64,000 nt of DNA, taken from contig NC_086108.1 in the NCBI RefSeq assembly GCF_963921235.1, positions 65,784,001-65,848,000 of the forward strand, written 5' to 3'. The position numbers were made by a program, and so were the translations under genes. Source of the DNA: Mobula hypostoma (taxonomy: Eukaryota). Below, in pieces: positions 3,001 through 62,560 of the stretch (positions are counted from its first letter, which is position 1; each line of letters begins with the position of its first letter). The notes beneath the pieces are model-generated. The model ran no database searches. It worked only from the letters and a program-made list of their open reading frames with translations, and was not told where the DNA came from.

Positions 3001-3106
3001 TTCGGAGAAATGTACATAAATCACAACTGCCATTGAGTTGCAGTCTTGCTTTAAGAGGCTGGTCTGACATGATGACATTATTATGTAAAAGATTTTTTAG
3101 CATGTT

Positions 3107-3142
3107 AGTCCTGACGAAGGGTCTCGGCCTGAAACGTCGACT
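3107..3142 (+). ncRNA. Minimal type-I hammerhead ribozyme motif
   Basis: AGTC-CTGACGA-AGGGTCTCGGCCT-GAAACGTC-GACT: helix I AGTC/GACT, CUGANGA box, helix II, GAAA box, palindromic ACGU helix III and GUC cleavage triplet. Confidence 0.8.
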
Positions 3143-3199
3143 GTACCTCTTCCTAGAGATACTGCCTGGCCTGCTGCGTTCACCAGCAACTTTTATGTG
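3107..3199 (+). mobile_element. Short Penelope-like (pLTR-derived) insert carrying a hammerhead motif
   Basis: Absent from the other LTR copies. Flanked by a near-perfect 11-bp TSD, TTTAGCATGTT (3096-3106) / TTTAGCGTGTT (3200-3210). Homologous to 16951-17132 and 54678-54788. Confidence 0.8.
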
Positions 3200-5879: not shown

Positions 5880-7038
5880 TCCTATAATTTTCCCCTTCCC
5901 CACAACCACCCCCCCCCCCACCAACCCCACTTCCCAGCTTTAACACTCTACCCTGTAGTATTTGAGAATTCCATTATGGGAAGAAGACTATGACTATCTA
6001 CCCTATCGCTGCCTCTCATCATTTTTTATACCTCAATTTAATCATCCCTCAGCCTCTGACACACCTAAGAACACAATCCTATTTTGTTGAACCTGTCATT
6101 ACAGTTAATACTCTCTGATCTAGGCAACATCCTGGTGAACCACTCCCATACCCTTCCCAAAGCCTCCACAACTTTCCTGTAATGTGGTAATCAGAAATGT
6201 ATATACATTACTCCAAATGTGCCTAACTAAAGTTTTATATGGGTGTAACATGACTTTCTGAATTTTACACACAACAACCTGACCAGTAAATGAAGGAATG
6301 TTGTATCCCTTCTTTACCACCCTTCCTACTTGTATCGCCACTTTCAAGGTGTTATGGACTTGCATTCTGGAGTTCTTCAATGCTCCTAAGGATCCTGATA
6401 CGGACTGTATGGTTTCCTCTTAACTTTCACTTCCTACATTTCACTTCCCCACACTCCTACAGATTAAACTCGATCTGCCTTTTCCCTTTCTACATTTCCA
6501 GCTAGTATATATCCTGCTGAATCCTTTGACAAACTTTCTTATTATTATCCAGCATTCTGCCAATTTTCATGTTGTCTGTAACCTACATTTTCATCCAAAT
6601 CATTTATATATATTACAAACAACAGAGGACACAGTACCGGTCCTTGTGGGACACCACTGGTCACAGTCAGAACAGTAGCCCTCTATCACTACACAAGAGA
6701 TTCTGCAGGTGCTGGCGATCCAGAGTAACACACACAAAATGCTCGGTCAGATAGCAGCTATGAACAGGAATGAAGGGTTGGCATTTTGGGCTAAAACCCT
6801 TCAAGAGAAGGGTCTCAGCCCGAAACATCAACTCTTTATTTCTCCCCATAGATGCTGCCTAAGCTGCTGAGTTCCTCCACCACCAACCTCTGCCAAGTTC
6901 ATTTCAAACACATTCTTGTAAATCTCCATGGATCCCATCAGCCCATCATGAGCGGCCTTGTTGAAACTTTACTAAAGCCCATGTGTATATCATCCATTGT
7001 CATACCCTTATCAATCATCTTCGTCACCTCCTCAAAAA
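5880..7038 (-). mobile_element. Old CR1 LINE RT fragment
   Basis: Minus ORF 6120-6380 (LKVAIQVGRVVKKGY...YKTLVRH) resembles the CR1 RT C-terminal region. Confidence 0.8.
6691..6880. mobile_element. Older Penelope-type pLTR insert with two inverted arms and a degenerate hammerhead
   Basis: TTCTGCAGGTGCTGG...CACACAAAATGCT arm, followed by GAAGGGTCTCAGCCCGAAACATCAACT...GATGCTGCCT. Sits inside the CR1 fragment. Confidence 0.65.
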
Positions 7039-10910: not shown

Positions 10911-11419
10911 CTAGGGCTAATTTGAGGAAACCTTGTAATCTGTAGGGTAAAGTCTAAGTCAAATGGCTCTCCATCCCCAAACAAAAAAAAAAACAGAAAT
11001 AGCTGATGAACTTAGTCTGTAAAGCAGCATCTGTGGAAAGAAGAAATAGTTAGCCTTTTGGGTCAGTGGCCGTTGCTCAGATCTCAATCATCATTCTTTG
11101 CTGTATCAGGAAACCAAATGTTTCCCAAGTCCAAGAAAAGTGCCCAAGATGTGATTAACATTCTTTGGGTTATTCATTGAATCCTTAGGTTGCAATATAC
11201 CATCAGAACCCTGCACAATAGTTGTTGAAACTGTAAACAGAGTTAAATACTTTGAGCATTTTATAAGCTGAATCATGAACTATTTATTTTCTGTAGTCTG
11301 GCAATATTGCATATGAGTTTCTGAAACAATGAACTTAGGAACAATAGAAACTGAAAGCATGCACCTAACAACTATCGGAAAGTTGAATGTGTCAGGGCTT
11401 TGGTTCAGGCTGATATTTC

Positions 11420-11596: not shown

Positions 11597-13693
11597 ATAG
11601 AAACATAGAAACATAGAAAATAGGTGCAGGAGTAGGCCATTCGGCCCTTCGAGCCTGCACCGCCATTTATTATGATCATGGCTGATCATCCAACTCAGAA
11701 CCCCGCCCCAGCCTTCCCTCCATACCCTCTGACCCCTGCAGCCACAAGGGCCATATCTAACTCCCTCTTAAACATAGCCAATGAACTGGCCTCAACAGTT
11801 TGCTGTGGCAGAGAATTCCACAGATTCACCACTCTCTGTGTGAAGAAGTTTTTCCTAATCTCGGTCCTAAAAGGCTTCCCCTCTATCCTCAAACTGTGAC
11901 CCCTCATTCTGGACTTCCCCAACATCGGGAACAATCTTCCTGCATCTAGCCTGTCCAATCCCTTTAGGATCTTATACGTTTCAATCAGATCCCCCCTCAA
12001 TCTTCTAAATTCCAACGAGTACAAGCCCAGTTCATCCAGTCTTTCTTCATATGAAAGACCTGCCATCCCAGGAATCAATCTGGTGAACCTTCTTTGTACT
12101 CCCTCTATGGCAAAGATGTCTTTCCTCAGATTAGGGGACCAAAACTGCACACAATACTCCAGGTGTGGTCTCACCAAGGCCTTGTACAACTGCAGTAGTA
12201 CCTCCCTGCTCCTGTACTCGAATCCTCTCGCTATAAATGCCAGCATACCGTTCGCCTTTTTCACCGCCTGCTGTACCTGCATGCCCACTTTCAATGACTG
12301 GTGTATAATGACACCCAGGTCTTGTTGCACCTCCCCTTTTCCTAATCGGCCACCATTCAGATAATAATCTGTTTTCCTATTTTTGCCACCAAAGTGGATA
12401 ACTTCACATTTATCCACATTAAATTGCATCTGCCATGAGTTTGCCCACTCACCCAACCTATCCAAGTCACCCTGCATCCTCTTAGCATCCTCCTCACTGC
12501 TAACACTGCCACCCAGCTTCGTGTCATCCGCAAACTTGGAGATGCTGCATTTAATTCCCTCATCCAAGTCATTAATATATATTGTAAACAACTGGGGTCC
12601 CAGCACTGAGCCTTGCGGTACCCCACTAGTCACCGCCTGCCATTCTGAAAAGGTCCCGTTTATTCCCACTCTTTGCTTCCTGTCTGCTAACCAATTCTCC
12701 ACCCACACCAATACCTTACCCCCAATACCGTGTGCTTTAAGTTTGCACACTAATCTCCTATGTGGGACCTTGTCAAAAGCCTTTTGAAAATCCAAATATA
12801 CCACATCCACTGGTTCTCCCCTATCCACTCTACTAGTTACATCCTCAGAAAATTCTATGAGATTCGTCAGACATGATTTTCCTTTCACAAATCCATGCTG
12901 ACTTTGTCCGATCATTTCACCGCTTTCCAAATGTGCTGTTATCACATCCTTGATAACTGACTCCAGCAGTTTCCCCACCACCGACGTTAGGCTAACCGGC
13001 CTATAATTCCCCGGTTTCTCTCTCCCTCCTTTTTTAAAAAGTGGGGTTACATTAGCCACCCTCCAATCCTCAGGAACTAGTCCAGAATCTAACGAGTTTT
13101 GAAAAATTATCACTAATGCATCCACTATTTCTTGGGCCACTTCCTTAAGCACTCTGGGATGCAGACCATCTGGCCCTGGGGATTTATCTGCCTTCAATCC
13201 CTTCAATTTACCTAACACCACTTCCCTACTAACTTGTATTTCGCTCAGTTCCTCCATCTCACTGGACCCTCTGTCCCTTACTATTTCTGGAAGATTATTT
13301 ATGTCCTCCTTAGTGAAGACAGAACCAAAGTAATTATTCAATTGGTCTGCCATGTCCTTGCTCCCCATAATCAATTCACCTGTTTCTGTCTGCAGGGGAC
13401 CTACATTTGTCTTTACCAGTCTTTTCCTTTTTACATATCTATAAAAGCTTTTACAGTCCGTTTTTATGTTCTCTGCCAGTTTTCTCTCATAATCTTTTTT
13501 CCCCTTCCTAATTAAGCCCTTTGTCCTCCTCTGCTGAACTCTGAATTTCTCCCAGTCCTCAGGTGAGCCACTTTCTCTGGCTAATTTGTATGCTTCTTCT
13601 TTGGAATTGATACTATCCCTAATTTCTCTTGTCAGCCACGGGTGCACTACCTTCCTTGATTTATTCTTTTGCCAATCTGGGATGAACAATTGT
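11597..13693 (-). mobile_element. Young CR1/HER1-type LINE, 5'-truncated, with an uninterrupted RT frame
   Basis: 664-aa ORF 11695-13689 with KSPGPDGLHPRVLKE, YLDFQKAFDKVPH, GVPQGSVLGP and KFADDTK. 3' stem-loop and (GAAACATA)n tail. Confidence 0.98.
11695..13689 (-). pseudogene. CR1 ORF2 fragment (RT domain intact, endonuclease absent)
   Basis: ORF track shows complete RT motifs. The 5' truncation removes the APE endonuclease domain. Confidence 0.9.
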
Positions 13694-15099
13694 TATAGGG
13701 CTTGTCTGTGGATTTACTACATGCATCAAGTTTCCTAGGATTCAGTGTGAATGCTGAACTTGTTCAAGGAAGCTCTGAGCGCATCCTGCAATCTATTTCT
13801 CTTATTTCCTAGTAATCATCTTCCACAGCGGAGACTGGAGTAAAGGATAGTTTTTGGAGATTGATATTGGACATTGTGAACAACATGGCCTGCTCAGACA
13901 GCCTCATGAAATTGACTGGTTACTGCAGGGATGTTGGACTGGAAAATAATACTGACAATATTTGCATTTTTTTCCAGTGAACTTGGAGGACTTTGTGGAG
14001 ACATCAGTATGTCCAAGCAGTTTTATGTAATTCAAGGTTACTTAAAGCACCTTGCTAATTATTTTTGTTTGTCTATCTTGAACATAAAAGGTATTTTCTT
14101 GCAAAATTGCCTACCTTTTAAATTCTAAAAATATGAAATTCAGAGCTTATCAAAATCTCTCTGTACTGGTTGTTTTATTGGTCATAGGCTGTCTTAGCTA
14201 GTTGATAAAAAATAGTAAATTCCCTTTGAGAGACTAAGGAGATTCTGTTTCTGTCATCATTATCCCTTCTTAGAAACTAGAAGCAGTACTTTGCTCTTCA
14301 ATAACTTTTATCTTTAGCTATAAATTTGTGAAAATTAATATTCTACATTTTATGGTTTTCATCTCTTCAATTTAATCACTTTATGTAAAACAATGCAAAA
14401 AGTAGTACTTAAGGTATATGCAATGAAGCTGCAGGGGTTATAGTAATATGCTCCAACAAGTATGCCGAAATACAGATACAATAACTCACTTAATTCAATA
14501 AAACCATGAGCTGATCGGTATTTTCAAAGAAAATTACAGGAAGTCAAAGAATATCTACATTCCCTAAGGACTCTGAAGGACTGATATTATTTGAATCTGC
14601 ATCAGTAGCTGGATTTAAGAAGTTATTCTTAACCATTCTGATGTGTTGCTTGCAATAAAGATTAAAAATAACCTAACTGCCCAACTTCTATGGGTATCCT
14701 TTTGACTTTAATCTGAAAACGTTTTGCATCCTGGAAATGTTCAATGCCTTTGCTGCACCTAGAGAAGTCAAAACATAGAGATCTTTAAGTTATGAGAAAC
14801 AAACTTCACAACATTGCTATTTTAATTTCTGGATCTTCCCCGAGATCCTCATCAGGAATCTGGAGCTTCTCTTACGTTCTGCATGTAAAGCTTCAGTCCT
14901 CAGCTCAGTATAGGCTGCAGACCACTGCAATGCTTTCAATTTAACTTTTGGCTCTTCTTCCCCTTGAACTTGAGCAGTTGATGGGTGCACAGCATCAAAA
15001 AACAAACTTTTTTTTCCCCGAGCCATAATTTCTAAGGGCTTCTATTATGTTCATGTAGACAGCATTAAATCTCGTTCTAATAATCTGAGTACCTCACCA

Positions 15100-15499: not shown

Positions 15500-15830
15500 A
15501 AGCTGTAGTCAATGTGCACAGACCAAGCCCATGTTGAGCAAAGTGATTTTAAAAAAAGCACAGATAATCTGTTTTGGTAATGTTGAGTGTGGGAATTTTA
15601 AAAATTAGACAATTCCTCTGCTGTTCTTCAAAACTGGGCATGGATCGTTTACATCCACCCGAGAGAGCAAAGAGTGTCTTTGTTTAATGTCTCATCCAGA
15701 ACTTCCTACCCCTGGCAGTGCAGCAATCTCTTAGTGCTAATCTGGAGTGTCAGCCTAAACCTCCATGTTCTCATTCTAAACTTGAGCTAGATAAACCAAA
15801 TGAACTCTTGGTTTCCGAGAGCCTCGCTTA
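15500..15830 (-). mobile_element. Ancient Deu-domain SINE (SacSINE1/AmnSINE1-like)
   Basis: TTTACATCCACCCGAGAGAGCA...GTTTAATGTCTCATCC...CAGTGCAGCA...CTGGAGTGTCAGCCTA matches the reverse complement of the Deu-SINE core as recalled. Confidence 0.6.
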
Positions 15831-16950
15831 CTGGTGAATTTAATTAATGTTTGTCTCTAAAGCTGTTATGAATACTAATAAGCTGCTAAAATTCATCATT
15901 CCCACCTGTTGTTTTAAATTAAGTATTCTTCAATACTTATTGCAGCTGGTTTTTGAGATAAGGTGCAAATTCCCTTGTGTGAACGCAAATGGCTTTATTT
16001 GACAATTAATGTCACTGTACATGCAGAATTGGCAAGGTTTAGAAATAAAATAAAGAGTGGGGTCAGAATGATGTATTATACTTCATTTGACATGCAGGAA
16101 TTTTGTATCCCTAGTCAACAATCCTGTAGCTGGCAATTGTTAACACAAAGAACTTTCACAAAAAATGGATGGATGAAGGCACGAAGTTAAAATGATCTAA
16201 AGCACACTATAAGGAATACTTCTGAGTTGCCAATACTGCCAGTGAATGAATCACCTTTAACCTTACAGTCGTCATTTTTAGGGCTGATAATGCTAAGTTA
16301 GAGAGCAAAACAACATGAGGTGCAATTCACGTTAATTGTAGAGAGATTTTAATGATAGAGGTGGAGTTATACCAGGTGCATGGTGCTGAATGACAGATAG
16401 CTGTCATGTCAAAGTAGCAAAGTGACATCAAAAGATGCCCTCGCTGGAAATGGTTCACGTTTCTCTGTTCAAAAATTTCTCATGCTTATTGTTAACCTAT
16501 TTCATCTAAATTTCTTTCTATTTGTCTGCTAACCGAAAATTGCAGAACCTCGCATTTGCACATAATAAGCAATTTGACAGACGTTATAGTTACACAACGT
16601 AGAGTAAACCCTTATATTTCACCATTCACCAAAACTTTTACATTATGGATTTTGTAACTTGAAATTGTGGGATGAAATATATTTGTGAAAAAGGTGTTGT
16701 AAGCTTTCTTTTAATTATAGTGACACAGCTTTGGTAATGTTCTAGTCCGTTGTGTGGAAATAAAGAAGTTATATCATTCTTACTGATAAACCAGTATGTT
16801 GCTGAAATGCTGGCTCTCAGTGAGAGGATATTCATTTTCTGATCTAGGCTACATGAGCTGTGGCAATGCTAAGTCTGCCTGTGCTCTTTCTAATTGGAGG
16901 AAAGGTGAATTCCTCTAGGTAATCGGGCCGGACAACAATTCATGATGATT

Positions 16951-17132
16951 CAAACAACAGGAATTCTGCAGATGCTGGAAATTCAAGCAACACACATCAA
17001 AGTTGCTGGTGAACGCAGCAGGCCAGGCAGGACTAACTTAGTCCTGACGAAGGGTCTCGGCCTGAAACGTCGACTGCACCTCTTCCTACAGATGCTGCGT
17101 GGCCTGCTGCGTTCACCAGCAACTTTGATGTG
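16951..17132. mobile_element. Penelope-type insert with two inverted pLTR arms and a perfect 14-bp TSD
   Basis: AATTCATGATGATT at 16937-16950 and 17133-17146. Arm CACATCAAAGTTGCTGGTGAACGCAGCAGGCCA and its reverse complement. Confidence 0.88.
17040..17075 (+). ncRNA. Minimal type-I hammerhead ribozyme motif
   Basis: AGTCCTGACGAAGGGTCTCGGCCTGAAACGTCGACT, identical to 3107-3142. Confidence 0.8.
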
Positions 17133-17349
17133 AATTCATGATGATTAGAAGTTTTGTATAGGGGACGTTGGTCAATGTCACTTCTAAGCCACTTTGGCAG
17201 TTGAAGAGACTATTGACAATCAATCTATGAATGAATGAAACAAAAGAGAATTCATTATAATGGGTTTCATCTTTTCTAAAAAGAAATACTTCTGGACAGC
17301 AGTGTGAGGATATTTGATTTTGGAGCAATTACCTTAAGATAATATTCAT

Positions 17350-17725
17350 TTTGGGTTTATTATTAGTATCACATGTACCGAGATATAGTGAAAAGCTTCT
17401 CTTGCATACTGTTTACACAGATCAAATCATTACACCATACATTGACCTTTGAGATAAACAATAACAATGCAGAATAAAGTATAAAAGCTAGCAAAAAAGT
17501 GCAGTGCAGATAAACACTAAAGTGCAAGATCATAAGGAGGTAGATTGTGAGGCCAAGAGAGCATCTTATCATACTGTTTAAGAGTCTGATAACAGTGGGA
17601 TAAAAGCTGCCCTTGAGCCTGGCAGTATGTGCTTTCAAGCTTTTGTATCTTCTGCCCAATAGGAGAGAGGAGTAGAGAGAATATACAAGTTGGGTATATA
17701 GGTCTTACAGGTTTACTGAGACAGG
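17350..17725 (-). mobile_element. Rex/Babar LINE 3' fragment
   Basis: GRRYKSLKAHTARLKGSFYPTVIRLLN is the typical Rex ORF C-terminus. Confidence 0.85.
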
Positions 17726-18699
17726 GTTAAGTATAGATAGAATTCATATCAATCATATTCAGGAAACAAAATGGTCCCTGAGCTTCTTGGCCTATCACCT
17801 ATACATCTGCAAGTGACCACTGTTCCTATCAATACTCATTGAACTGTGAATATTAAATAATAAGAATAGGAAGATGCATAAAATTAAAATTATCATATAT
17901 CAGCAAAGAACTTGGTGAACATTGTCACATTTTCTCATTTACAATCAGTGGCCATTTTTTTTAAGGTTTCACCTGCTGTCCAAAATTATTGGTACTTCGG
18001 TGCTTTTCATGTCAATAAATACCTTTTCTCTAACATGTTTCTGAAAGAATATTTTAAAGACACTATTCATTTCAGTTATTATACTCACACAGATGTTTTT
18101 CAGTCTGAGTAGTGCTCTCTGGGATAAAAGATATTTCTGGCATATTTGCATATTACCTAGCTAATCTGAAGGAAACCAAAGAGAAAATAGTCTTTAAGGT
18201 AGCTGTTTAATTAATTAATAGTGGAGATATTTCCATACAGGAGTGATTAGAACAACAGTGAAACTGTAAAAGTAGGTTGACTACTCATGTATGACCTGAG
18301 GCATTGACTGTCAATGTAATTATTACAGTGCTTTTGATTATCTAGCATTCTCTGTGGGAAAGTCTTGCATTGTTCTTTCATGTTTGTACATATTCTTCAT
18401 TTTCTAAATTATGGTTGCTGCTAATAATTGAACGGATAGACAAATTATGATTTTTGCCCTCATTTAATAGTGATGACTTACTTAGGTATAAGTTAGCTAA
18501 ATGTGAATCAAAGCTGCAAAGAAGTAGAAAGGCTTAATTCCCAGTTTGTTGCCTAAGTGGATCTAGCTCAATTTAAATGGGTCTCAGTAGGACTCTTTTT
18601 GACTTTTGAATTCACTGTTCTTTAGTGTCCTTCGTTACAGAGCGGTTATGAATTTATATCACCTGCATTGTGTTAATGAACTGTTGAGGTCAAATAAAT

Positions 18700-19310
18700 G
18701 GGTTGATCAGCCTTGAAGGCAGGCACTTCTTCATACCTGGCCACTGCAGTCACTTGCAAACCAAAGGGGATTTGTGGTGGCGATTGTTCTGTCACAATCC
18801 GCGTGATTGCTTAGGGATATAGAGCAGTACAACGGTTCCGTCATCTCCTGCAGGACAAATTTCAAATCTACATTGTTGGGGCTCTTGGTGCCACTAGGTA
18901 GGAATGGAACTATGGAACTGAATGAGCCTGTCATATGTCCTGATCATTTCTAATATATTGGGTCCTCTTCCACCAAATGAAAGATATTCTTATATGGGTC
19001 TACCTTCTCTACCTTGTGGCCCTATATCTCAATAGAGGGTGAAATCTGCAAGTAATCCTTCCTCTGTCATTAGTCCATCATTATCAATATCCGTCACATT
19101 AGCTGAGGATGAGATTTGGCTGATTGTGATTACTAAAAGAAGTCTATACCTTGCATCCAACAACATTCCCTTTTCAGGTGAAAGGTGGACACTTCCGTCC
19201 ATCAGCAAAATGATTTGTTTTAGAGCCAGTTTTGAGACTACATCCTCATTGATGAGAACAATGATCCCTGTCCATTTATCACATCTGGATTGGTCATTTA
19301 GAATTTAGGA
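18700..19310 (-). mobile_element. Highly decayed RTE-like LINE RT remnant (tentative)
   Basis: Hand translation gives IIVLINED...VHLSPEK...DIDNDG...K*LQWPGM, in the same order as RTE motifs ADDIVL / GLxINxKK / ISNDG / RQLRWAGH. Many stops. Confidence 0.35.
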
Positions 19311-32370: not shown

Positions 32371-35300
32371 TGTAACCCTCAGGTTCGGCCGGCGGCATTA
32401 GTCTAGGGAAGGCAGTCTCTGGCCCCGCCAAACGTGTGAAATCTGAGGTACAAAACTTCTTGGTTGTGTGGATGCTGTGTGATGTGTTCCCCGGTTACAA
32501 ATCAGTACCACAAAAGAACAGACGGTAAACCATATGCAGTTAAATGATTTAGCTTTATAATTCCTAATTTGACTAGAGGGTTAGTAAAGAAAAACAAAAA
32601 GAAAAGGGCCCATCTTAATGAAACAATCTAATGTGCACATTTGGAGCTCATGGTTTCCCTTCTGGTTGTCCTCCATCCAGTTGGGATCACAGAGACATGG
32701 CTCCAGGGTGACCAGGGATGGGAGCTCAACCTTCAGGGATATTCAATATTCAGGAGGGATAGACATGAAGGAAGGGGAGGTGGGGTGGCGTTGCTGGTTA
32801 AAGAAGAGATTAACGCAATAGAAAAGAAGGACATAAGCCGGGAAAATGTGGAATCGATATGGGTAGAGCTGCGTAACACCAAGGGGCAGAAGACGCTGGT
32901 GGGAGTTGTGTACAGGCCACCTAACAGTAGTAGTGAGGTCGGAGATGGTATTAAACAGGAAATTAGAAATGTGTGCAATAAAGGAACAGCAGTTATAATG
33001 GGTGACTTCAATCTACATGTAGACTGGGTGAACCAAATTGGTAAAGGTGCTGAGGAAGAGGATTTCTTGGGGATGTATGCGGGATGGTTTTTTGAACCAA
33101 CATGTCGAGGAACCAACTAGAGAGCAGGCTATTCTGGACTGGGTTTTGAGCAATGAGGAAGGGTTAATTAGCAATCTTGTCGTGAGAGGCCCCTTGGGTA
33201 AGAGTGACCATAATATGGTGGAATTCTTCATTAAGATGGAGAGTGACATAGTTAATTCAGAAACAAAGGTTCTGAACTTAAAGAGGGGTAACTTTGAAGG
33301 TATGAGACATGAATTAGCTAAGATAGACTGGCAAATGACACTTAAAAGATTGACGGTGGATATGCAATGGCAAGCATTTAAAGGTTGCATGGATGAACTA
33401 CAACAATTGTTCATCCCAGTTTGGCAAAAGAATAAATCAAGGAAGGTAGTGCACCCGAGGCTGACAAGAGAAATTAGGGATAGTATCAATTCCAAAGAAG
33501 AAGCATACAAATTAGCCAGAGAAAGTGGCTCACCTGAGGACTGGGAGAAATTCAGAGTTCAGCAGAGGAGGACAAAGGGCTTAATTAGGAAGGGGAAAAA
33601 AGATTATGAGAGAAAACTGGCAGGGAACATAAAAACAGACTGTAAAAGCTTTTATAGATATGTAAAAAGGAAAAGACTGGTAAAGACAAATGTAGGTCCC
33701 CTGCAGACAGAAACAGGCAAATTGATTATGGGGAGCAAGGACATGGCAGACCAATTGAATAGTTACTTTGGTTCTGTCTTCACTAAGGAGGACATAAATA
33801 ATCTTCCAGAAATAGTAAGGGACAGAGGGTCCAGTGGGATGGAGGAACTGAGCGAAATACATGTTAGTAGGGAAGTGGTGTTAGGTAAATTGAAGGGATT
33901 GAAGGCAGATAAATCCCCAGGGCCAGATGGTCTGCATCCTAGAGTGCTTAAAGAAGTAGCCCAAGAAATAGTGGATGCATTAGTGATAATTTTTCAAAAC
34001 TCGTTAGATTCTGGACTAGTTCCTGAGGATTGGAGGGTGGCTAATGTAACCCCACTTTTTAAAAAAGGAGGGAGAGAGAAACCGGGGAATTATAGACTGG
34101 TTAGCCTAACGTCGGTGGTGGGGAAACTGCTGGAGTCAGTTATCGAGGATGTGATAACAGCACATTTGGAAAGCGGTGAAATGATCGGACAAAGTCAGCA
34201 TGGATTTGTGAAAGGAAAATCATGTCTGACGAATCTCATAGAATTTTTTGAGGATGTAACTAGTAGAGTGGATAGGGGAGAACCAGTGGATGTGGTATAT
34301 TTGGATTTTCAAAAGGCTTTTGACAAGGTCCCACACAGGAGATTAGTGTGCAAACTTAAAGCACACGGTATTGGGGGTAAGGTATTGATGTGGGTGGAGA
34401 ATTGGTTAGCAGACAGGAAGCAAAGAGTGGGAATAAACAGGACCTTTTCAGAATGGCAGGCGGTGACTAGTGGGGTACCGCAAGGCTCAGTGCTGGGACC
34501 CCAGTTGTTTACAATATATATTAATGACTTGGATGAGGGAATTAAATGCAGCATCTCCAAGTTTGCGGATGACACGAAGCTGGGTGGCAGTGTTAGCAGT
34601 GAGGATGATGCTAAGAGGATGCAGGGTGACTTGGATAGGTTGGGTGAGTGGGCAAATTCATGGCAGATGCAATTTAATGTGGATAAATGTGAAGTTATCC
34701 ACTTTGGTGGCAAAAATAGGAAAACAGATTATTATCTGAATGGTGGCCGATTAGGAAAAGGGGAGGTGCAACGAGACCTGGGTGTCATTATACACCAGTC
34801 ATTGAAAGTGGGCATGCAGGTACAGCAAGCAGTGAAAAAGGCGAATGGTATGCTGGCATTTATAGCGAGAGGATTCGAGTACAGGAGCAGGGATGTACTA
34901 CTGCAGTTGTACAAGGCCTTGGTGAGACCACATCTGGAGTACTGTGTGCAGTTTTGGTCCCCTAATCTGAGGAAAGACATCTTTGCCATAGAGGGAGTAC
35001 AAAGAAGGTTCACCAGATTGATTCCTGGGATGGCGGGACTTTCATATGAAGAAAGACTGGATGAATTGGGCTTGTACTCGTTGGAATTTAGAAGATTGAG
35101 GGGGGATCTGATTGAAACGTATAAGATCCTAAAGGGATTGGACAAGCTAGATGCAGGAAGATTGTTCCCGATGTTGGGGAAGTCCAGAACGAGGGGTCAC
35201 AGTTTGAGGATAGAGGGGAAACCGTTTAGGACCGAGATTAGGAAAAACTTCTTCACACAGAGAGTGGTGAATCTGTGGAATTCTCTGCCACAGGAAACTG

Positions 35301-35734
35301 TTGAGGCCAGTTCATTGGCTATATTTAAGAGGGAGTTAGATATGGACCTTGTGGCTACGGGGGTCAGGGGGTATGAAGGGAAGGCTGGGGCGGGGTTCTG
35401 AGTTGGATGATCAGCCATGATCATAATAAATGGCGGTGCCGAATGGCCTACTCCTGCACCTATTTTCTATGTTTCTATGTTTCTATGATATCCCCCAGGC
35501 TTCGTCGACTCCCGACCCCACTCCAAGTCCACTCCTTTCAGGCATTTTCTCTCTTCATCTTCCACTGAATAAAAGACCCAGATCATCTTGTTCTCAGGAA
35601 CGCAAGAAAAAAAGACCCTCCCTTCATTGGATGGCACACATTCCAAAGCCCCTGTTATCTCTAGTCATAACCCAAACACTGCTGCTACAGAAAAACCATT
35701 ACATTAGCAATGAAACCTTTCCCAGGGTGTTACG
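32371..35734 (-). repeat. 5' LTR of Gypsy family B, split into 32371-32678 and 35488-35734 by a CR1
   Basis: Both halves align colinearly with 27053-27605. The break falls at CCTCCATC/GATATCCCC. Confidence 0.92.
32679..35487 (+). mobile_element. Young CR1/HER1-type LINE, near-complete ORF2 (APE + RT) with one frameshift
   Basis: APE motifs VGITETW, VYRPP, MGDFN and SDH. +1 frameshift near 33070, 787-aa ORF 33038-35401, (TATGTTTC)n tail. Confidence 0.98.
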
Positions 35735-35841: not shown

Positions 35842-36185
35842 CGAGGGATGATTGATAAGTTCGTGGCCTAAGGTAGAACGAAATGAGTTATACAGCTCTC
35901 ATTACCCGCACGTGCAGTTCAACTCTTTGAGTGAAAATGCAGAAAGTTTGAAGTTAATAACTCATCTCCTTCTACCTTAGGTCATGAGCTTATCAATCAC
36001 CCCTGCTGTGGACCTCTTCTGGAGGTCCAAGACGCCGTCTTCTACAAAGAAGGGATCCGTATGCTCCACGACCACTGGACTAAGTGTGTACATGTAGGAG
36101 GGGACTATGTTGAAAAATAAATGTGCTAGGTTTTCTAAAATTGACTCCTTCTAGCTTAGGCCACGAACTTATCAATCACCCCTGA
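35842..36185 (+). mobile_element. Mariner-derived non-autonomous element
   Basis: TIRs GATTGATAAGTTCGTGGCCTAAG / CTTAGGCCACGAACTTATCAATC. Internal transposase C-terminus FYKEGIRMLHDHWTKCVHVGGDYVEK* ending at 36120. Confidence 0.88.
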
Positions 36186-47018: not shown

Positions 47019-48436
47019 TGTGTTAGATGATGGCTCCAATTATTCCCAGCGTGTTAGATTTGTGTGTTTTACTCTCAAAAGAATTTTTTTTTCTTCTTAA
47101 GTTAAGAAATCTATATTGCATTAGCTACCTTGGTGGATTGCCACATTAGATCAAATGACAGAGAACAGGTGGGGGTATACCATAGAGGTTTGAATGCAAG
47201 GAGAAGAATTTGCCCATCTTTCTCGCACACGCTGACAACCTCCCCACCAGAAATTAATGCAGCACTCAGCTTTGGGTCCACGCAGCTGAGTTTTGGATGC
47301 ATTCTGGTTCATGAAGAGTGAGAGATGAGAGACCTGATAGAGCAAACAATAATAGTGTCCAAGCAAGTGAGCAAGGGTGATATCTCAGCCAAATTGGCTG
47401 AGTCAGGTGTAATGCTATAGATGTGGAAAGTCAATGGAGCTTTGGGATTCACAGTGTTTTGTGTCAAAAGCACAGGGCAGACCCAAATGGATAGAACTCT
47501 TTATTCTGTATAGAAACCCAACTGTTTGCATCAATATCGTAACATCAGATTTACAGTGATTTAGATCAATGATGATGACTCAGTGACATTGTCAGCTGAA
47601 TATAGCAATGGTAACGTTTTCACTAGCCAGATGAGCATAATGAAACGATATGGCAATATAAGATCTCACTTTCTTGGAGCAAAATAATACAATGAAATAA
47701 TCCATTTGAATTGTTTCAGACTATATATCAAATGTCATGATCAGAAAATAGCATGGCGTGGAGAGAGAAACATGGCACAGAACACTTTAAATCAGTTGGA
47801 TGTTTAAATAATTAGCAAAATGAACTAAACACAGCCCATAGTTAATCTGGAGAATTCTATATGCAACTTGGCTGTTGTATAAATTTTATGGTTACTCACG
47901 CATAAGGAGCAGAATATTATTTATAAAAGTGTGCCAATAGATAACTTGCCACATTGGCAGGTTAATTGTTCACCGTAAATGACCTGAGAGACCATTCATA
48001 AGAACTGTTCTGATGAGTGGTCTTCAGTCTGTAACATTGACATCATTTCTCTTCCCACAGATGTGGTCTGACCTGCCGACTATTTCAAGCACTTTTTTTT
48101 ATTTTAGGTTTCCAGCATCTGAGGTTTTTCTTTATTTTCACTGTATGTTATCTCGAGTACGTAGGCAAGTTATAGATTTGGTGGTCGTTGATAGGAATGA
48201 GAGAAGAATTAAATGGGATTGTTGTAAGTAAGTGCTTAATGGACAATACAGTCCCTTGAGCCAATAGGCCTTTTTTCAAGCAAGATTACTCGATGAAAAT
48301 TACTTCAGGGCTTGGAATGCTGCTTCTATTGTGGATAATTGCTAATCATGACAGTTAGTGTGATCTAGAGAAAGGATTAGCTATCACCCATTTCTGTTGG
48401 TTATGCTTAAGATTATTATCAATTTTTGTGTCCAAG

Positions 48437-54677: not shown

Positions 54678-54788
54678 AGCAACACACATAAAAGTTGCTG
54701 GTGAACGCAGCAGGCCAGGCAGCATCTCTACGAAGAGGTGCAGTCGACGTTTCAGGCCGAGACCCTTCGTCAGGACTAACTGAAGGAA
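54678..54788 (-). mobile_element. Short Penelope-type insert with a hammerhead motif
   Basis: Reverse complement of 3107-3199 with few differences. Confidence 0.8.
54742..54777 (-). ncRNA. Minimal type-I hammerhead ribozyme motif
   Basis: Minus strand reads AGTCCTGACGAAGGGTCTCGGCCTGAAACGTCGACT, identical to the other two copies. Confidence 0.8.
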
Positions 54789-59644: not shown

Positions 59645-62560
59645 ACATAGAAACATAGAAACATAGAAAATAGGTGCAGGAGTAGGCCATTCGGCCCTTC
59701 GAGCCTGCACCGCCATTTATTATGATCATGGCTGATCATCCAACTCAGAACCCAGCCTTCCCTCCATACCCCCTGACCCCTGTAGCCACAAGGGCCGTAT
59801 CTAACTTCCTTTTAAACATAGCTAATGAATTGGCCTCAACAGTTTGCTGTGGCAGAGAATTCCACAGATTCACCACTCTCTGTGTGAAGAAGTTTTTCCT
59901 AACCTCGGTCCTAAAAGGCTTCCCCTCTATCCTCAAACTGTGACCCCTCGTTCTAGACCTCCCCAACATCGGGAACAATCTTCCCGCATCTAGCCTGTCC
60001 AATCCCTTTAGGATCTTATACGTTTCAATCAGATCCCCCCTCAATCTTCTAAATTCCAACGAGTACAAGCCCAGTTCATCCAGTCTTTCTTCATATGAAA
60101 GACCTGCCATCCCAGGAATCAATCTGGTGAACCTTCTTTGTACTCCCTCTATGGCAAAGATGTCTTTCCTCAGATTAGGGGACCAAAACTGCACACAATA
60201 CTCCAGGTGTGGTCTCACCAAGGCCTTGTACAACTGCAGTAGTACCTCCCTGCTCCTGTACTCGAATCCTCTCGCTATAAATGCCAGCATACCGTTCGCC
60301 TTTTTCACCGCCTGCTGTACCTGCATGCCCACTTTCAATGACTGGTGTATAATGACACCCAGGTCTCGTTGCACCTCCCCTTTTCCTAATCGGCCACCAT
60401 TCAGATAATAATCTGTTTTCCTATTTTTGCCACCAAAGTGGATAACTTCACATTTATCCACATTAAATTGCATCTGCCATGAGTTTGCCCACTCACCCAA
60501 CCTATCCAAGTCACCCTGCATCCTCTTAGCATCCTCCTCACTGCTAACACTGCCGCCCAGCTTCGTGTCATCCGCAAACTTGGAGATGCTGCATTTAATT
60601 CCCTCATCCAAGTCATTAATATATATTGTAAACAACTGGGGTCCCAGCACTGAGCCTTGCAGTACCCCACTAGTCACTGCCTGCCATTCTGAAAAGGTCC
60701 CGTTTATTCCCACTCTTTGCTTCCTGTCTGCTAACCAATTCTCCACCCACACCAATACCTTACCCCCAATACCGTGTGCTTTAAGTTTGCACACTAATCT
60801 CCTGTGTGGGACCTTGTCAAAAGCCTTTTGAAAATCCAAATATACCACATCCACTGGTTCTCCCCTATCCACTCTACTAGTTACATCCTCAAAAAATTCT
60901 ATGAGATTCGTCAGACATGATTTTCCTTTCACAAATCCATGCTGACTTTGTCTGATCATTTCACCGCTTTCCAAATGTGCTGTTATCACATCCTTGATAA
61001 CTGACTCCAGCAGTTTCCCCACCACCGACGTTAGGCTAACCGGCCTATAATTCCCCGGTTTCTCTCTCCCTCCTTTTTTAAAAAGTGGGGTTACATTAGC
61101 CACCCTCCAATCCTCAGGAACTAGTCCAGAATCTAACGAGTTTTGAAAAATTATCACTAATGCATCCACTATTTCTTGGGCCACTTCCTTAAGCACTCTG
61201 GGATGCAGACCATCTGGCCCTGGGGATTTATCTGCCTTCAATCCCTTCAATTTACCTAACACCACTTCCCTACTAACATGTATTTCGCTCAGTTCCTCCA
61301 TCTCACTGGACCCTCTGTCCCTTACTATTTCTGGAAGATTATTTATGTCCTCCTTAGTGAAGACAGAACCAAAGTAATTATTCAATTGGTCTGCCATGTC
61401 CTTGCTCCCCATAATCAATTCACCTGTTTCTGTTTGCAGGGGACTTACATTTGTCTTCATCAGTCTTTTCCTTTTTACATATCTATAAAAGCTTTTACAG
61501 TCCGTTTTTATGTTCTCTGCCAGTTTTCTCTCAATCTTTTTTCCCCTTCCTAATTAAGCCCTTTGTCCTCCTCTGCTGAACTCTGAATTTCTCCCAGTCC
61601 TCAGGTGAGCCACTTTCTCTGGCTAATTTGTATGCTACTTCTTTGGAATTGATACTATCCCTAATTTCTCTTGTCAGCCACGGGTGCACTACCTTCCTTG
61701 ATTTATTCTTTTGCCAAACTGGGATGAACAATTGTTGTAGTTCATCCATGCAACCTTTAAATGCCTGCCATTGCATATCCACCGTCAATCCTTGAAGTGT
61801 CATTTGCCAGTCTATCTTAGCTAATTCACGTCTCATACCTTCAAAGTTACCCCTCTTTAAGTTCAGAACCTTTGTTTCTGAATTAACTACGTCACTCTCC
61901 ATGTTAATGAAGAATTCCACCATATTATGGTCACTCTTACCCAAGGGGCCTCTCACGACAAGATCGCTAATTAACCCTTCCTCATTGCTCAAAACCCAGT
62001 CCAGAATAGCCTGCTCTCTAGTCGGTTCCTCGACATGTTGGTTCAAAAAACCATCCCGCATACATTCCAAGAAATCCTCTTCCTCAGCACCTTTACCAAT
62101 TTGGTTCACCCAGTCTACATGTAGATTGAAGTCACCCATTATAACTGCTGTTCCTTTATTGCACACATTTCTAATTTCCTGTTTAATACCATCTCCGACC
62201 TCACTGCTACTGTTAGGTGGCCTGTACACAACTCCCACCAGCGTCTTCTGCCCCTTAGTGTTACGCAGCTCTACCCATATCGATTCCACATCTTCCCGGC
62301 TTATGTCCTTCCTTTCTATTGCGTTAATCTCTTTTTTAACCAGCAACGCCACCCCACCTCCCCTTCCTTCATGTCTATCCCTCCTGAATATTGAATATCC
62401 CTGAACGTTGAGCTCCCATCCCTGGTCACCCTGGAGCCATGTCTCTGTGATCCCAACTATATCATAATCATTAATAACAATCTGCACTTTCAATTCATCC
62501 ACCTTATTACGAATGCTCCTTGCATTGACACATAAAGCCTTCAGGCGCTCTTTTACAACT
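59645..62560 (-). mobile_element. Young CR1/HER1-type LINE with essentially the whole ORF2 and one 2-bp frameshift
   Basis: APE ORF 61531-62592 (LKALCVNARSIRNK, GITETW, YRPP, GDFN, SDH) plus RT ORF 59745-61460. A 2-bp deletion at ~61532 versus the 13481-13500 copy. (GAAACATA)n tail. Confidence 0.98.

What the first reader, a model, noticed from the sequence alone, without database searches (positions are those of the whole stretch)
16937..17146. 182-bp fold-back element: intact hammerhead enclosed by a ~38-bp inverted repeat, with a perfect 14-bp TSD
Seen: the left arm CACATCAAAGTTGCTGGTGAACGCAGCAGGCCAGGCAG pairs with ~17095-17132. A second short inverted pair, AGGACTAA-C-TTAGTCCT, overlaps hammerhead helix I, and the antisense arm has lost its own hammerhead by an internal deletion. 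Established: Penelope insertions often carry an inverted 5' pLTR. Inference: a transcript would form a long hairpin with the ribozyme in the loop, and the short hairpin would compete with helix I. The perfect TSD implies a recent insertion.
Basis: partly seen in the sequence, partly recalled or inferred. Interest (0 to 1): 0.7.

Follow-up and report, generated by a model that had tools for sequence, protein, structure and literature searches.

The report
Dead Penelope fold-back insertion, ray genome
This 182-base hairpin-shaped insert is a tiny, dead leftover of a very common Penelope-like jumping gene, laid down in the head-to-head pattern already known for such elements, and its ribozyme motif is predicted not to fold, so it is ordinary.

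Summary
The anatomy is real: a 14/14 TSD, a 182-bp insert, 38-nt arms (97%) and a 9-bp junction palindrome. An empty site in a related species proves the TSD. The insert is two head-to-head end-pieces of a hugely amplified Penelope-like (PLE) terminal repeat, with a 42-nt tail on one arm only. That is the published PLE layout. It is not very recent: a sister species about 1.9% diverged carries both junctions. The hammerhead is the minimal, dimer-type form with a G·U at 10.1-11.1. It has no partner, and helix I has p=0.001 in the hairpin. Fold-backs recur at other positions: 3 of 6 window relics, and 11 of 15 listed joints. Most likely origin: two cDNAs primed from the two target nicks and joined through a 3-nt microhomology. 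Copies of this exact junction could not be counted, because no genome is held. The parent ORF and transcription were not shown. This scan reported the same pattern before on other DNA.

The parts
16937..16950 (.). left target-site duplication (14 bp, AT-rich; reads ATT at the 3' end on both strands)
   Evidence: single copy at the empty site in organism C (table 8, record 26)
16951..16992 (-). 42-nt PLE 'tail', present on the left arm only; its end is the family's outer terminus
   Evidence: 512 and 273 contigs of X1 leave the stretch at 16951 and 16952 (table 7)
16993..17030 (-). left arm: inverted, truncated 3' part of the pseudo-LTR (38 nt)
   Evidence: (I1)
17028..17046 (.). 9-bp head-to-head junction palindrome with 1-nt centre; 17028-17030 is the 3-nt microhomology with the left arm; 17031-17037 is the inverted head piece
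17038..17132 (+). right arm: 95-nt sense pseudo-LTR piece without tail; 94.7% and 95.8% identical to solo copies at 3105-3199 and 54685-54779
17039..17076 (+). minimal type I hammerhead motif: helix I 17039-43/17072-76, core 17044-50, unpaired A17051, helix II 17052-55/17060-63 (G·U at 10.1-11.1), GAAA 17064-67, palindromic ACGU with no loop 3, predicted cut after 17071
   Evidence: read from the sequence against PMC4209133; folding
17133..17146 (.). right target-site duplication

Best explanation
A dead-on-arrival, extremely 5'-truncated two-armed insertion of an endonuclease-bearing Penelope-like element, made once at this site. Inferred mechanism: the PLE protein, acting in trans, nicked both strands 14 bp apart in AT-rich DNA, and each 3'-OH primed reverse transcription. 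The left nick primed from the outer (tail) start and that cDNA stopped after about 80 nt, just before the hammerhead region. The right nick primed from the inner start 42 nt upstream and ran 95 nt through the hammerhead. The two antisense cDNAs were then joined head to head. Most simply, the right cDNA folded back for about 10 nt and annealed to the left cDNA through 3 bases; alternatively a longer palindrome later lost 51 nt between the same 3-nt repeats. The hammerhead is a passenger of the pseudo-LTR, has no partner and is predicted misfolded. Shown: anatomy, TSD, empty site, sharing with a sister species, recurrence of fold-backs. Inferred: enzymology, order of steps, inactivity.
For: Empty site: one contig of organism C joins 16936 to 17133 with no letters between (record 26). 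The layout matches published PLE insertions: an adjacent inverted pLTR, a tail on one inverted pLTR only, 8-10 bp TSDs and palindromes at the inverted junction (PMC3846280 passages and Discussion; PMC8557442 passages). A purified PLE protein cleaves and extends both strands, prefers ATT, and starts at two sites that bracket the tail (PMC11167929 parts 1-2). Here the TSD ends in ATT on both strands (6 of 5887 local 14-mers do; post hoc, one case). The right arm ends where other sense copies end: 1 and 7 nt further in the two window copies, and about 6-7 nt further in two exonised Mobula copies read from protein. That fits independent priming on the right. Fold-backs are recurrent: 3 of 6 relics in the window are head to head; 11 of the 15 listed joints link left-arm to right-arm positions, each at a different place (799 joints not shown). 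One junction in organism B has the same three-part build (table 5c). Single minimal hammerheads showed no cleavage in PMC4209133. Helix I p=0.001.
Against: No RT/GIY-YIG ORF of this family was found, so PLE membership rests on layout and motif. The number of copies with this exact junction is unknown (no genome). Some other fold-back junctions have 6-14 times single-copy depth in X1, which could mean such units sometimes spread. The ATT symmetry is not repeated at the two old fold-backs, where TSDs are unclear. Nearest-neighbour folding ignores tertiary contacts and protein help, and it also gives p=0.001 for an ordinary solo copy, so it discriminates weakly. Arkhipova et al. favour self-priming on an antisense template rather than dual priming.
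Confidence: 0.85

Rival explanations
1. A self-propagating fold-back mini-element: the 182-bp unit, once formed, is transcribed on the minus strand (tail at its 3' end) and re-copied by PLE protein as a MITE-like parasite.
For: The minus strand keeps the tail and the 3' pseudo-LTR end in sense orientation. Several other fold-back junctions have 6-14 times single-copy depth in X1 (table 5).
Against: One copy in 64 kb. Listed junctions fall at many different positions. The right arm ends at the family's inner terminus, which a re-copied transcript has no reason to respect (inference). Multi-copy junctions can also arise repeatedly at microhomologies (1-3 shared letters).
Confidence: 0.07
2. A regulated ribozyme switch or small-RNA source: the hairpin RNA is made, and the short palindrome toggles hammerhead cleavage.
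For: A strong hairpin is predicted on both strands. The core letters are intact. The missing 51 nt prevent complete antisense masking (all helix I and II pairs p=0.0 in a model of the undeleted form).
Against: It is a dimer-type motif with no partner nearer than about 14 kb. It has G·U at 10.1-11.1. Helix I has p=0.001 with the junction piece and 0.004 without it. Core conservation is expected from age alone: arms differ at 1 of 44 sites, flanks by 1.9-3.8% between species.
Confidence: 0.04
3. The fold-back arose by self-priming on an antisense template (Arkhipova et al. 2013), or wholly after insertion by rearrangement of a longer palindrome, and not by dual target priming. The end product is still a dead PLE scrap; this rival concerns only the route.
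For: Junction palindromes are read that way in PMC3846280. The 48-kb relic has a 17-bp-arm head palindrome with no long left arm. The 6.7-kb relic has lost its centre.
Against: A single self-primed molecule does not by itself explain two different family termini (tail end and inner end) abutting the two TSD copies; both-strand priming has been shown in vitro.
Confidence: 0.25

Closest known systems
Complex inverted insertions of EN+ Penelope-like elements, e.g. Pen2a_Av and Pen2_Av of Adineta vaga (PMC3846280; passages and Discussion read), general layout in PMC8557442 (passages read)
   Same: Head-to-head inverted pLTR pieces, tail on one side only, one TSD around the whole unit, palindrome at the inverted junction, microhomology-bounded loss of sequence, AT-rich target.
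   Different: No ORF at all: both arms are under 100 nt. TSD 14 bp against 8-10 bp; tail 42 nt against 30-40; junction palindrome 9-bp arms. Host is a ray-like cartilaginous fish with very high copy density.
Minimal hammerheads (min-HHR) of metazoan PLE pseudo-LTRs (PMC4209133, parts 1-2 of 4 read; review PMC6765202, passages read)
   Same: Type I core, 5-bp helix I, unpaired base between 9 and 10.1, palindromic 15.1-16.1 with no loop 3; a 3'-splice-site-like sequence ends at the 5' end of helix I in the family, as reported for D. virilis Penelope.
   Different: G·U instead of the conserved G10.1-C11.1; helix II only 4 bp; no tandem partner; enclosed by a hairpin.
PAc (Poseidon of Anolis carolinensis) in vitro system (PMC11167929, parts 1-2 of 4 and passages read)
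   Same: Two start sites bracketing the tail, both-strand priming and ATT preference would produce exactly this footprint.
   Different: Different element and host; that paper does not discuss inverted insertions or TSDs in its main text. The clade of the ray element was not determined.
Non-LTR retrozymes (bioRxiv 10.64898/2026.07.22.740005, parts 1-2 of 5 read)
   Same: Short, non-coding, PLE-derived, carries a type I hammerhead.
   Different: Retrozymes are head-to-tail tandems with two or more hammerheads; this is head to head with one.

Membership tests
EN+ PLE inverted insertion | Inverted, 5'-truncated copy directly adjacent, head to head | tested here: met
EN+ PLE inverted insertion | 30-40-bp tail on one end only | tested here: met
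   42 nt at 16951-16992, left arm only; slightly above the published range
EN+ PLE inverted insertion | One TSD around the whole unit, single copy at the empty site | tested here: met
   (organism C, record 26)
EN+ PLE inverted insertion | Palindrome at the inverted junction | tested here: met
   9-bp arms, 17028-17046
EN+ PLE inverted insertion | Same repeat flanks an RT + GIY-YIG ORF elsewhere in the genome | tested here: inconclusive
   No such ORF among the 48 ORFs of 120 aa or more in the window, read by eye; protein searches gave only two exonised pieces or nothing; no genome held
PLE minimal hammerhead | Core CUGAnGA / GAAA / UH, helix I 4-5 bp, extra base between 9 and 10.1, palindromic 15.2-16.2 | tested here: met
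   sequence; isolated core folds helices I and II at p 0.79-0.99
PLE minimal hammerhead | Conserved G10.1-C11.1 pair | tested here: not met
   G·U in all 3 close copies; G-C in the older 6.8-kb relic
PLE minimal hammerhead | Self-cleavage as dimer or with protein | not testable with these tools
   needs an assay; the dimer hammerhead fold scores -12.9 against a minimum of -31.7 kcal/mol in the model
Canonical hammerhead (Rfam) | Match to an Rfam hammerhead model | tested here: not met
   0 matches at gathering score; none of 3 matches with E up to 10 is a hammerhead
Non-LTR retrozyme | Two or more consecutive head-to-tail units, each with a hammerhead | tested here: not met
   one motif on +, none on -
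MITE / DNA transposon derivative | Inverted repeats at both termini | tested here: not met
   the left arm starts 42 nt inside the left end
Propagated mini-element family | Many dispersed copies with the same junction | tested here: inconclusive
   1 in the window; one search gives no count for this junction; no genome

The most novel reading that the evidence does not exclude
The insert is a clean in vivo footprint of symmetric dual priming by a PLE dimer: ATT at both primer ends, and the two arms starting at the two reverse-transcription start sites. Its turn lies at a programmed point, the first base after a branch-point / pyrimidine / CAG splice-acceptor-like (also initiator-like) sequence at the foot of helix I. 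On this reading some such fold-backs re-mobilise as 180-bp units. Ray genomes, with very many young copies and empty sites in sister species, would then make the unsolved origin of PLE inverted repeats directly testable.
Probability: 0.15. Interest if true: 0.5.

Novelty: new member of a known kind. Interest (0 to 1): 0.17.

Why it matters
As a single locus it matters little: it is a tidy, species-dated example of a published insertion pattern. Its use is as one data point on how PLEs make inverted repeats, which PMC8557442 calls still undefined. A genome-wide tally of TSD ends, arm termini and turn points in this family would test dual priming against self-priming. It also shows that a perfect 14-bp TSD is a poor clock in slowly diverging genomes.

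Tried and rejected
Whole-genome count of the junction: no genome held. Family and junction patterns in metagenome contigs and the family pattern in viral contigs: 0 matches each; uninformative, since these collections are not expected to hold the host genome. Expression: no RNA holder listed. Run X10 is only guessed to be RNA; its low-depth contigs at 15527-15903 and 18182-18406 are not used either way. Summed depth over the insert is about five orders above the flanks, but the tool says this is no copy number, so none is given. Parent ORF: searches with two window frames found 2 exonised pieces among 14 candidates and 0 of 8. Host gene, to learn which strand is transcribed: frames at 18734-18943 and 19032-19308 gave nothing usable (0 of 182 candidates; only two Pfam matches below cut-off among 9 proteins; Atlas 0.78). 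The 3 hits are bacterial-type repeat proteins with no tblastn match to the window and were rejected as chance. The 187 frames listed were read by eye only, not scanned. Rfam mir-3926 match (E 0.23, 20 bits against a cut-off of 82): rejected. Bacterial promoter scan: not applicable. A hot spot of turn points at 17038-17049 was considered and not claimed, because the stretch laid cannot show joints upstream of 17038. TSDs at the two solo copies: none longer than 6 bp. Lünse et al. (dimer cleavage) is not held and is cited only through PMC6765202. Searches (listings only) showed no paper on this ray family; one search showed no paper on the effect of G·U at 10.1-11.1 beyond two listings. Most subscription papers and Repbase/Dfam were not searchable. 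No supplements were read.

Full report
Observation. The sequence is as described. A 14-bp direct repeat (16937-16950, 17133-17146; 14 of 14) encloses 182 bp, and arms at 16993-17030 and 17095-17132 are 97% complementary over 38 nt. The region folds at -103.3 kcal/mol, z = -10.9, with 0 of 200 shuffles as good. Exact 14-mer repeats 20-400 bases apart occur at only 2 loci in the window. The junction palindrome has 9-bp arms (17028-17046); 3 of 2000 random windows match that.

Anatomy. The right arm (17038-17132, 95 nt) is a sense piece of a dispersed repeat with two more close copies in the window, at 3105-3199 (94.7%) and 54685-54779 (95.8%). Read on the minus strand, the left part (16951-17037) is the same piece with one extra base at its head, 51 nt missing between two 3-nt repeats, and a 42-nt extension; there is 1 mismatch in 44 shared nt. 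So the insert is two head-to-head ends of one element, with a tail on one arm. The family is very abundant: tens of thousands of contigs were laid on the 3-kb stretch in each of three DNA-type runs, with depth peaking over the insert. Two protein models named for Mobula species contain exonised sense pieces, so the host is probably a ray (inference).

Empty site and age. In organism C (run X9) one contig joins 16936 to 17133 with nothing between, i.e. a single TSD copy and no insert (record 26). This proves insertion with a 14-bp duplication. In organism B (run X5, another study) flank contigs run 29-30 nt into both ends of the insert (to 16979; from 17103). B differs from the window at 49 of 2640 flank bases (1.9%) and C at 75 of 1988 (3.8%, gaps not counted). 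The insertion therefore predates the A/B split or was polymorphic across it, and most simply postdates the split from C. Contigs drop variants, so a filled allele in C is not excluded. A 14-mer stays perfect with p 0.57-0.76 at such distances. 'Recent' holds only on a between-species scale. X1 may be the source sample and is not independent support.

The hammerhead. All core letters are present on the + strand, with helix I of 5 bp, an unpaired base before helix II, helix II of 4 bp, and a palindromic ACGU in place of helix III and loop 3. This is the minimal PLE hammerhead of PMC4209133 (parts 1-2 of 4 read), where a single motif showed no cleavage and dimers cleaved weakly. In PMC11167929 (parts 1-2 of 4) the motif cleaved only with protein and was not needed for insertion. 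Pair 10.1-11.1 is G·U here and in both close copies, against the conserved G-C. Rfam finds no hammerhead. In the folding model helix I has p 0.35-0.44 in the right arm alone and 0.001 in the whole insert, where five pairs of the short palindrome have p 0.77-0.998. But helix I stays at 0.004 when the junction piece is removed, and one ordinary solo copy also scores 0.001. The model supports 'misfolded', not 'switch', and it ignores tertiary contacts and proteins. The minus strand has no hammerhead.

Fold-backs are routine in this family. Of 6 related relics found in the window, 3 are head to head: this one; an older one at about 6690-6890 with the tail on the left arm only (self-inverted score 48, best of 1000 shuffles 29); and a very old one near 47980-48136 with a 17-bp-arm palindrome at about the same place. 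In one search, 11 of the 15 listed joints link left-arm positions 16971-17012 to right-arm positions 17040-17049, each different; 799 joints were not shown. One junction in B has the same three-part build (table 5c). Against a pure one-off picture, some of those junctions have 6-14 times single-copy depth in X1. The count for this junction is not given, and no genome is held, so 'unique' is not shown.

Mechanism. Published: PLE insertions often carry an adjacent inverted truncated copy, a tail at one end, a TSD around the unit and a palindrome at the inverted junction (PMC3846280 passages and Discussion; PMC8557442 passages; PMC2377424 passages). A purified PLE protein nicks and extends both strands, prefers ATT, and starts at two sites bracketing the tail. 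Inferred here: each nick primed one cDNA, the left from the outer start and the right from the inner start. This explains why different family termini abut the two TSD copies, and other sense copies end 1-7 nt beyond the right arm's end. The TSD ends in ATT on both strands (6 of 5887 local 14-mers), which fits but is post hoc and was not repeated at the old relics. The cDNAs were joined either by a 10-nt fold-back of the right cDNA annealing through 3 bases to the stalled left cDNA, or as a full palindrome that later lost 51 nt. The two routes give the same sequence; I put them at about 60:40. Self-priming on an antisense template, favoured in PMC3846280, remains a rival.

A side lead. In the family, the sequence upstream of 17038 ends in a branch-point-like word, pyrimidines and CAG (loose-end consensus of 258 X1 contigs, agreement 0.58). 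This resembles a splice acceptor and also an initiator (motifs recalled). PMC4209133 maps an intron end to the foot of helix I in D. virilis. This copy and the 3.1-kb copy start within 1 nt of that point; the 54.7-kb copy runs at least 11 nt further. The data laid cannot test a hot spot.

Not shown. The parent ORF and clade were not found. The host gene and transcribed strand were not identified. Transcription is untested.

Comparison and verdict. It works like, and by layout belongs to, the known inverted insertions of EN+ PLEs; the ORF link is untested. It is not a retrozyme (no tandem), not a MITE (asymmetric ends) and not a canonical hammerhead. Searches (listings only) showed no paper on this ray family. 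My reading was recorded before the look-up. Earlier notes of this scan describe the same fold-back pattern in this and other genomes; they are unchecked and are not counted as support. New member of a known kind; interest 0.17.

Noticed in passing
window 6690-6890: Older subfamily of the same repeat as a head-to-head fold-back, tail on the left arm only, centre lost; no clear TSD.
   Followed up: yes
window 47978-48136: Very old copy with a 17-bp-arm palindrome (2 mismatches, 1-nt centre) at the foot of helix I and a possible 8-of-9 TSD.
   Followed up: partly
window 10998-11084 (-): Decayed solo relic of a related repeat.
   Followed up: partly
run X10, joint 17007 to 17049: A different fold-back junction of the family has depth 2593 in a run guessed to be RNA, against 3-4 for unique flanks. 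It could be a fold-back in a highly expressed transcript or a library artefact; it is not this copy.
   Followed up: no
P0002, P0003: Two Mobula protein models, one named STARD3 N-terminal-like isoform, include about 36 residues read from the sense repeat: exonisation or annotation noise.
   Followed up: partly
window 18737-18848 (-): Exon-like segment bounded by acceptor-like and donor-like sites; gene not identified.
   Followed up: partly
window 17318-17721: A second high-copy repeat 200 bp downstream of the insert, with high depth in all four runs.
   Followed up: no
window 35989-36184: Exact 17-bp direct repeat 179 bases apart; looks like a duplicated DNA-transposon end (resemblance recalled, not tested).
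   Followed up: no
window 11597-13698, 32679-35487, 59646-62458: Three young copies, 97-98% alike, of a LINE with long RT reading frames (CR1-like by recall); decayed LTR-element frames at about 0.5-2.7, 20-25, 28-32 and 39-41 kb.
   Followed up: no
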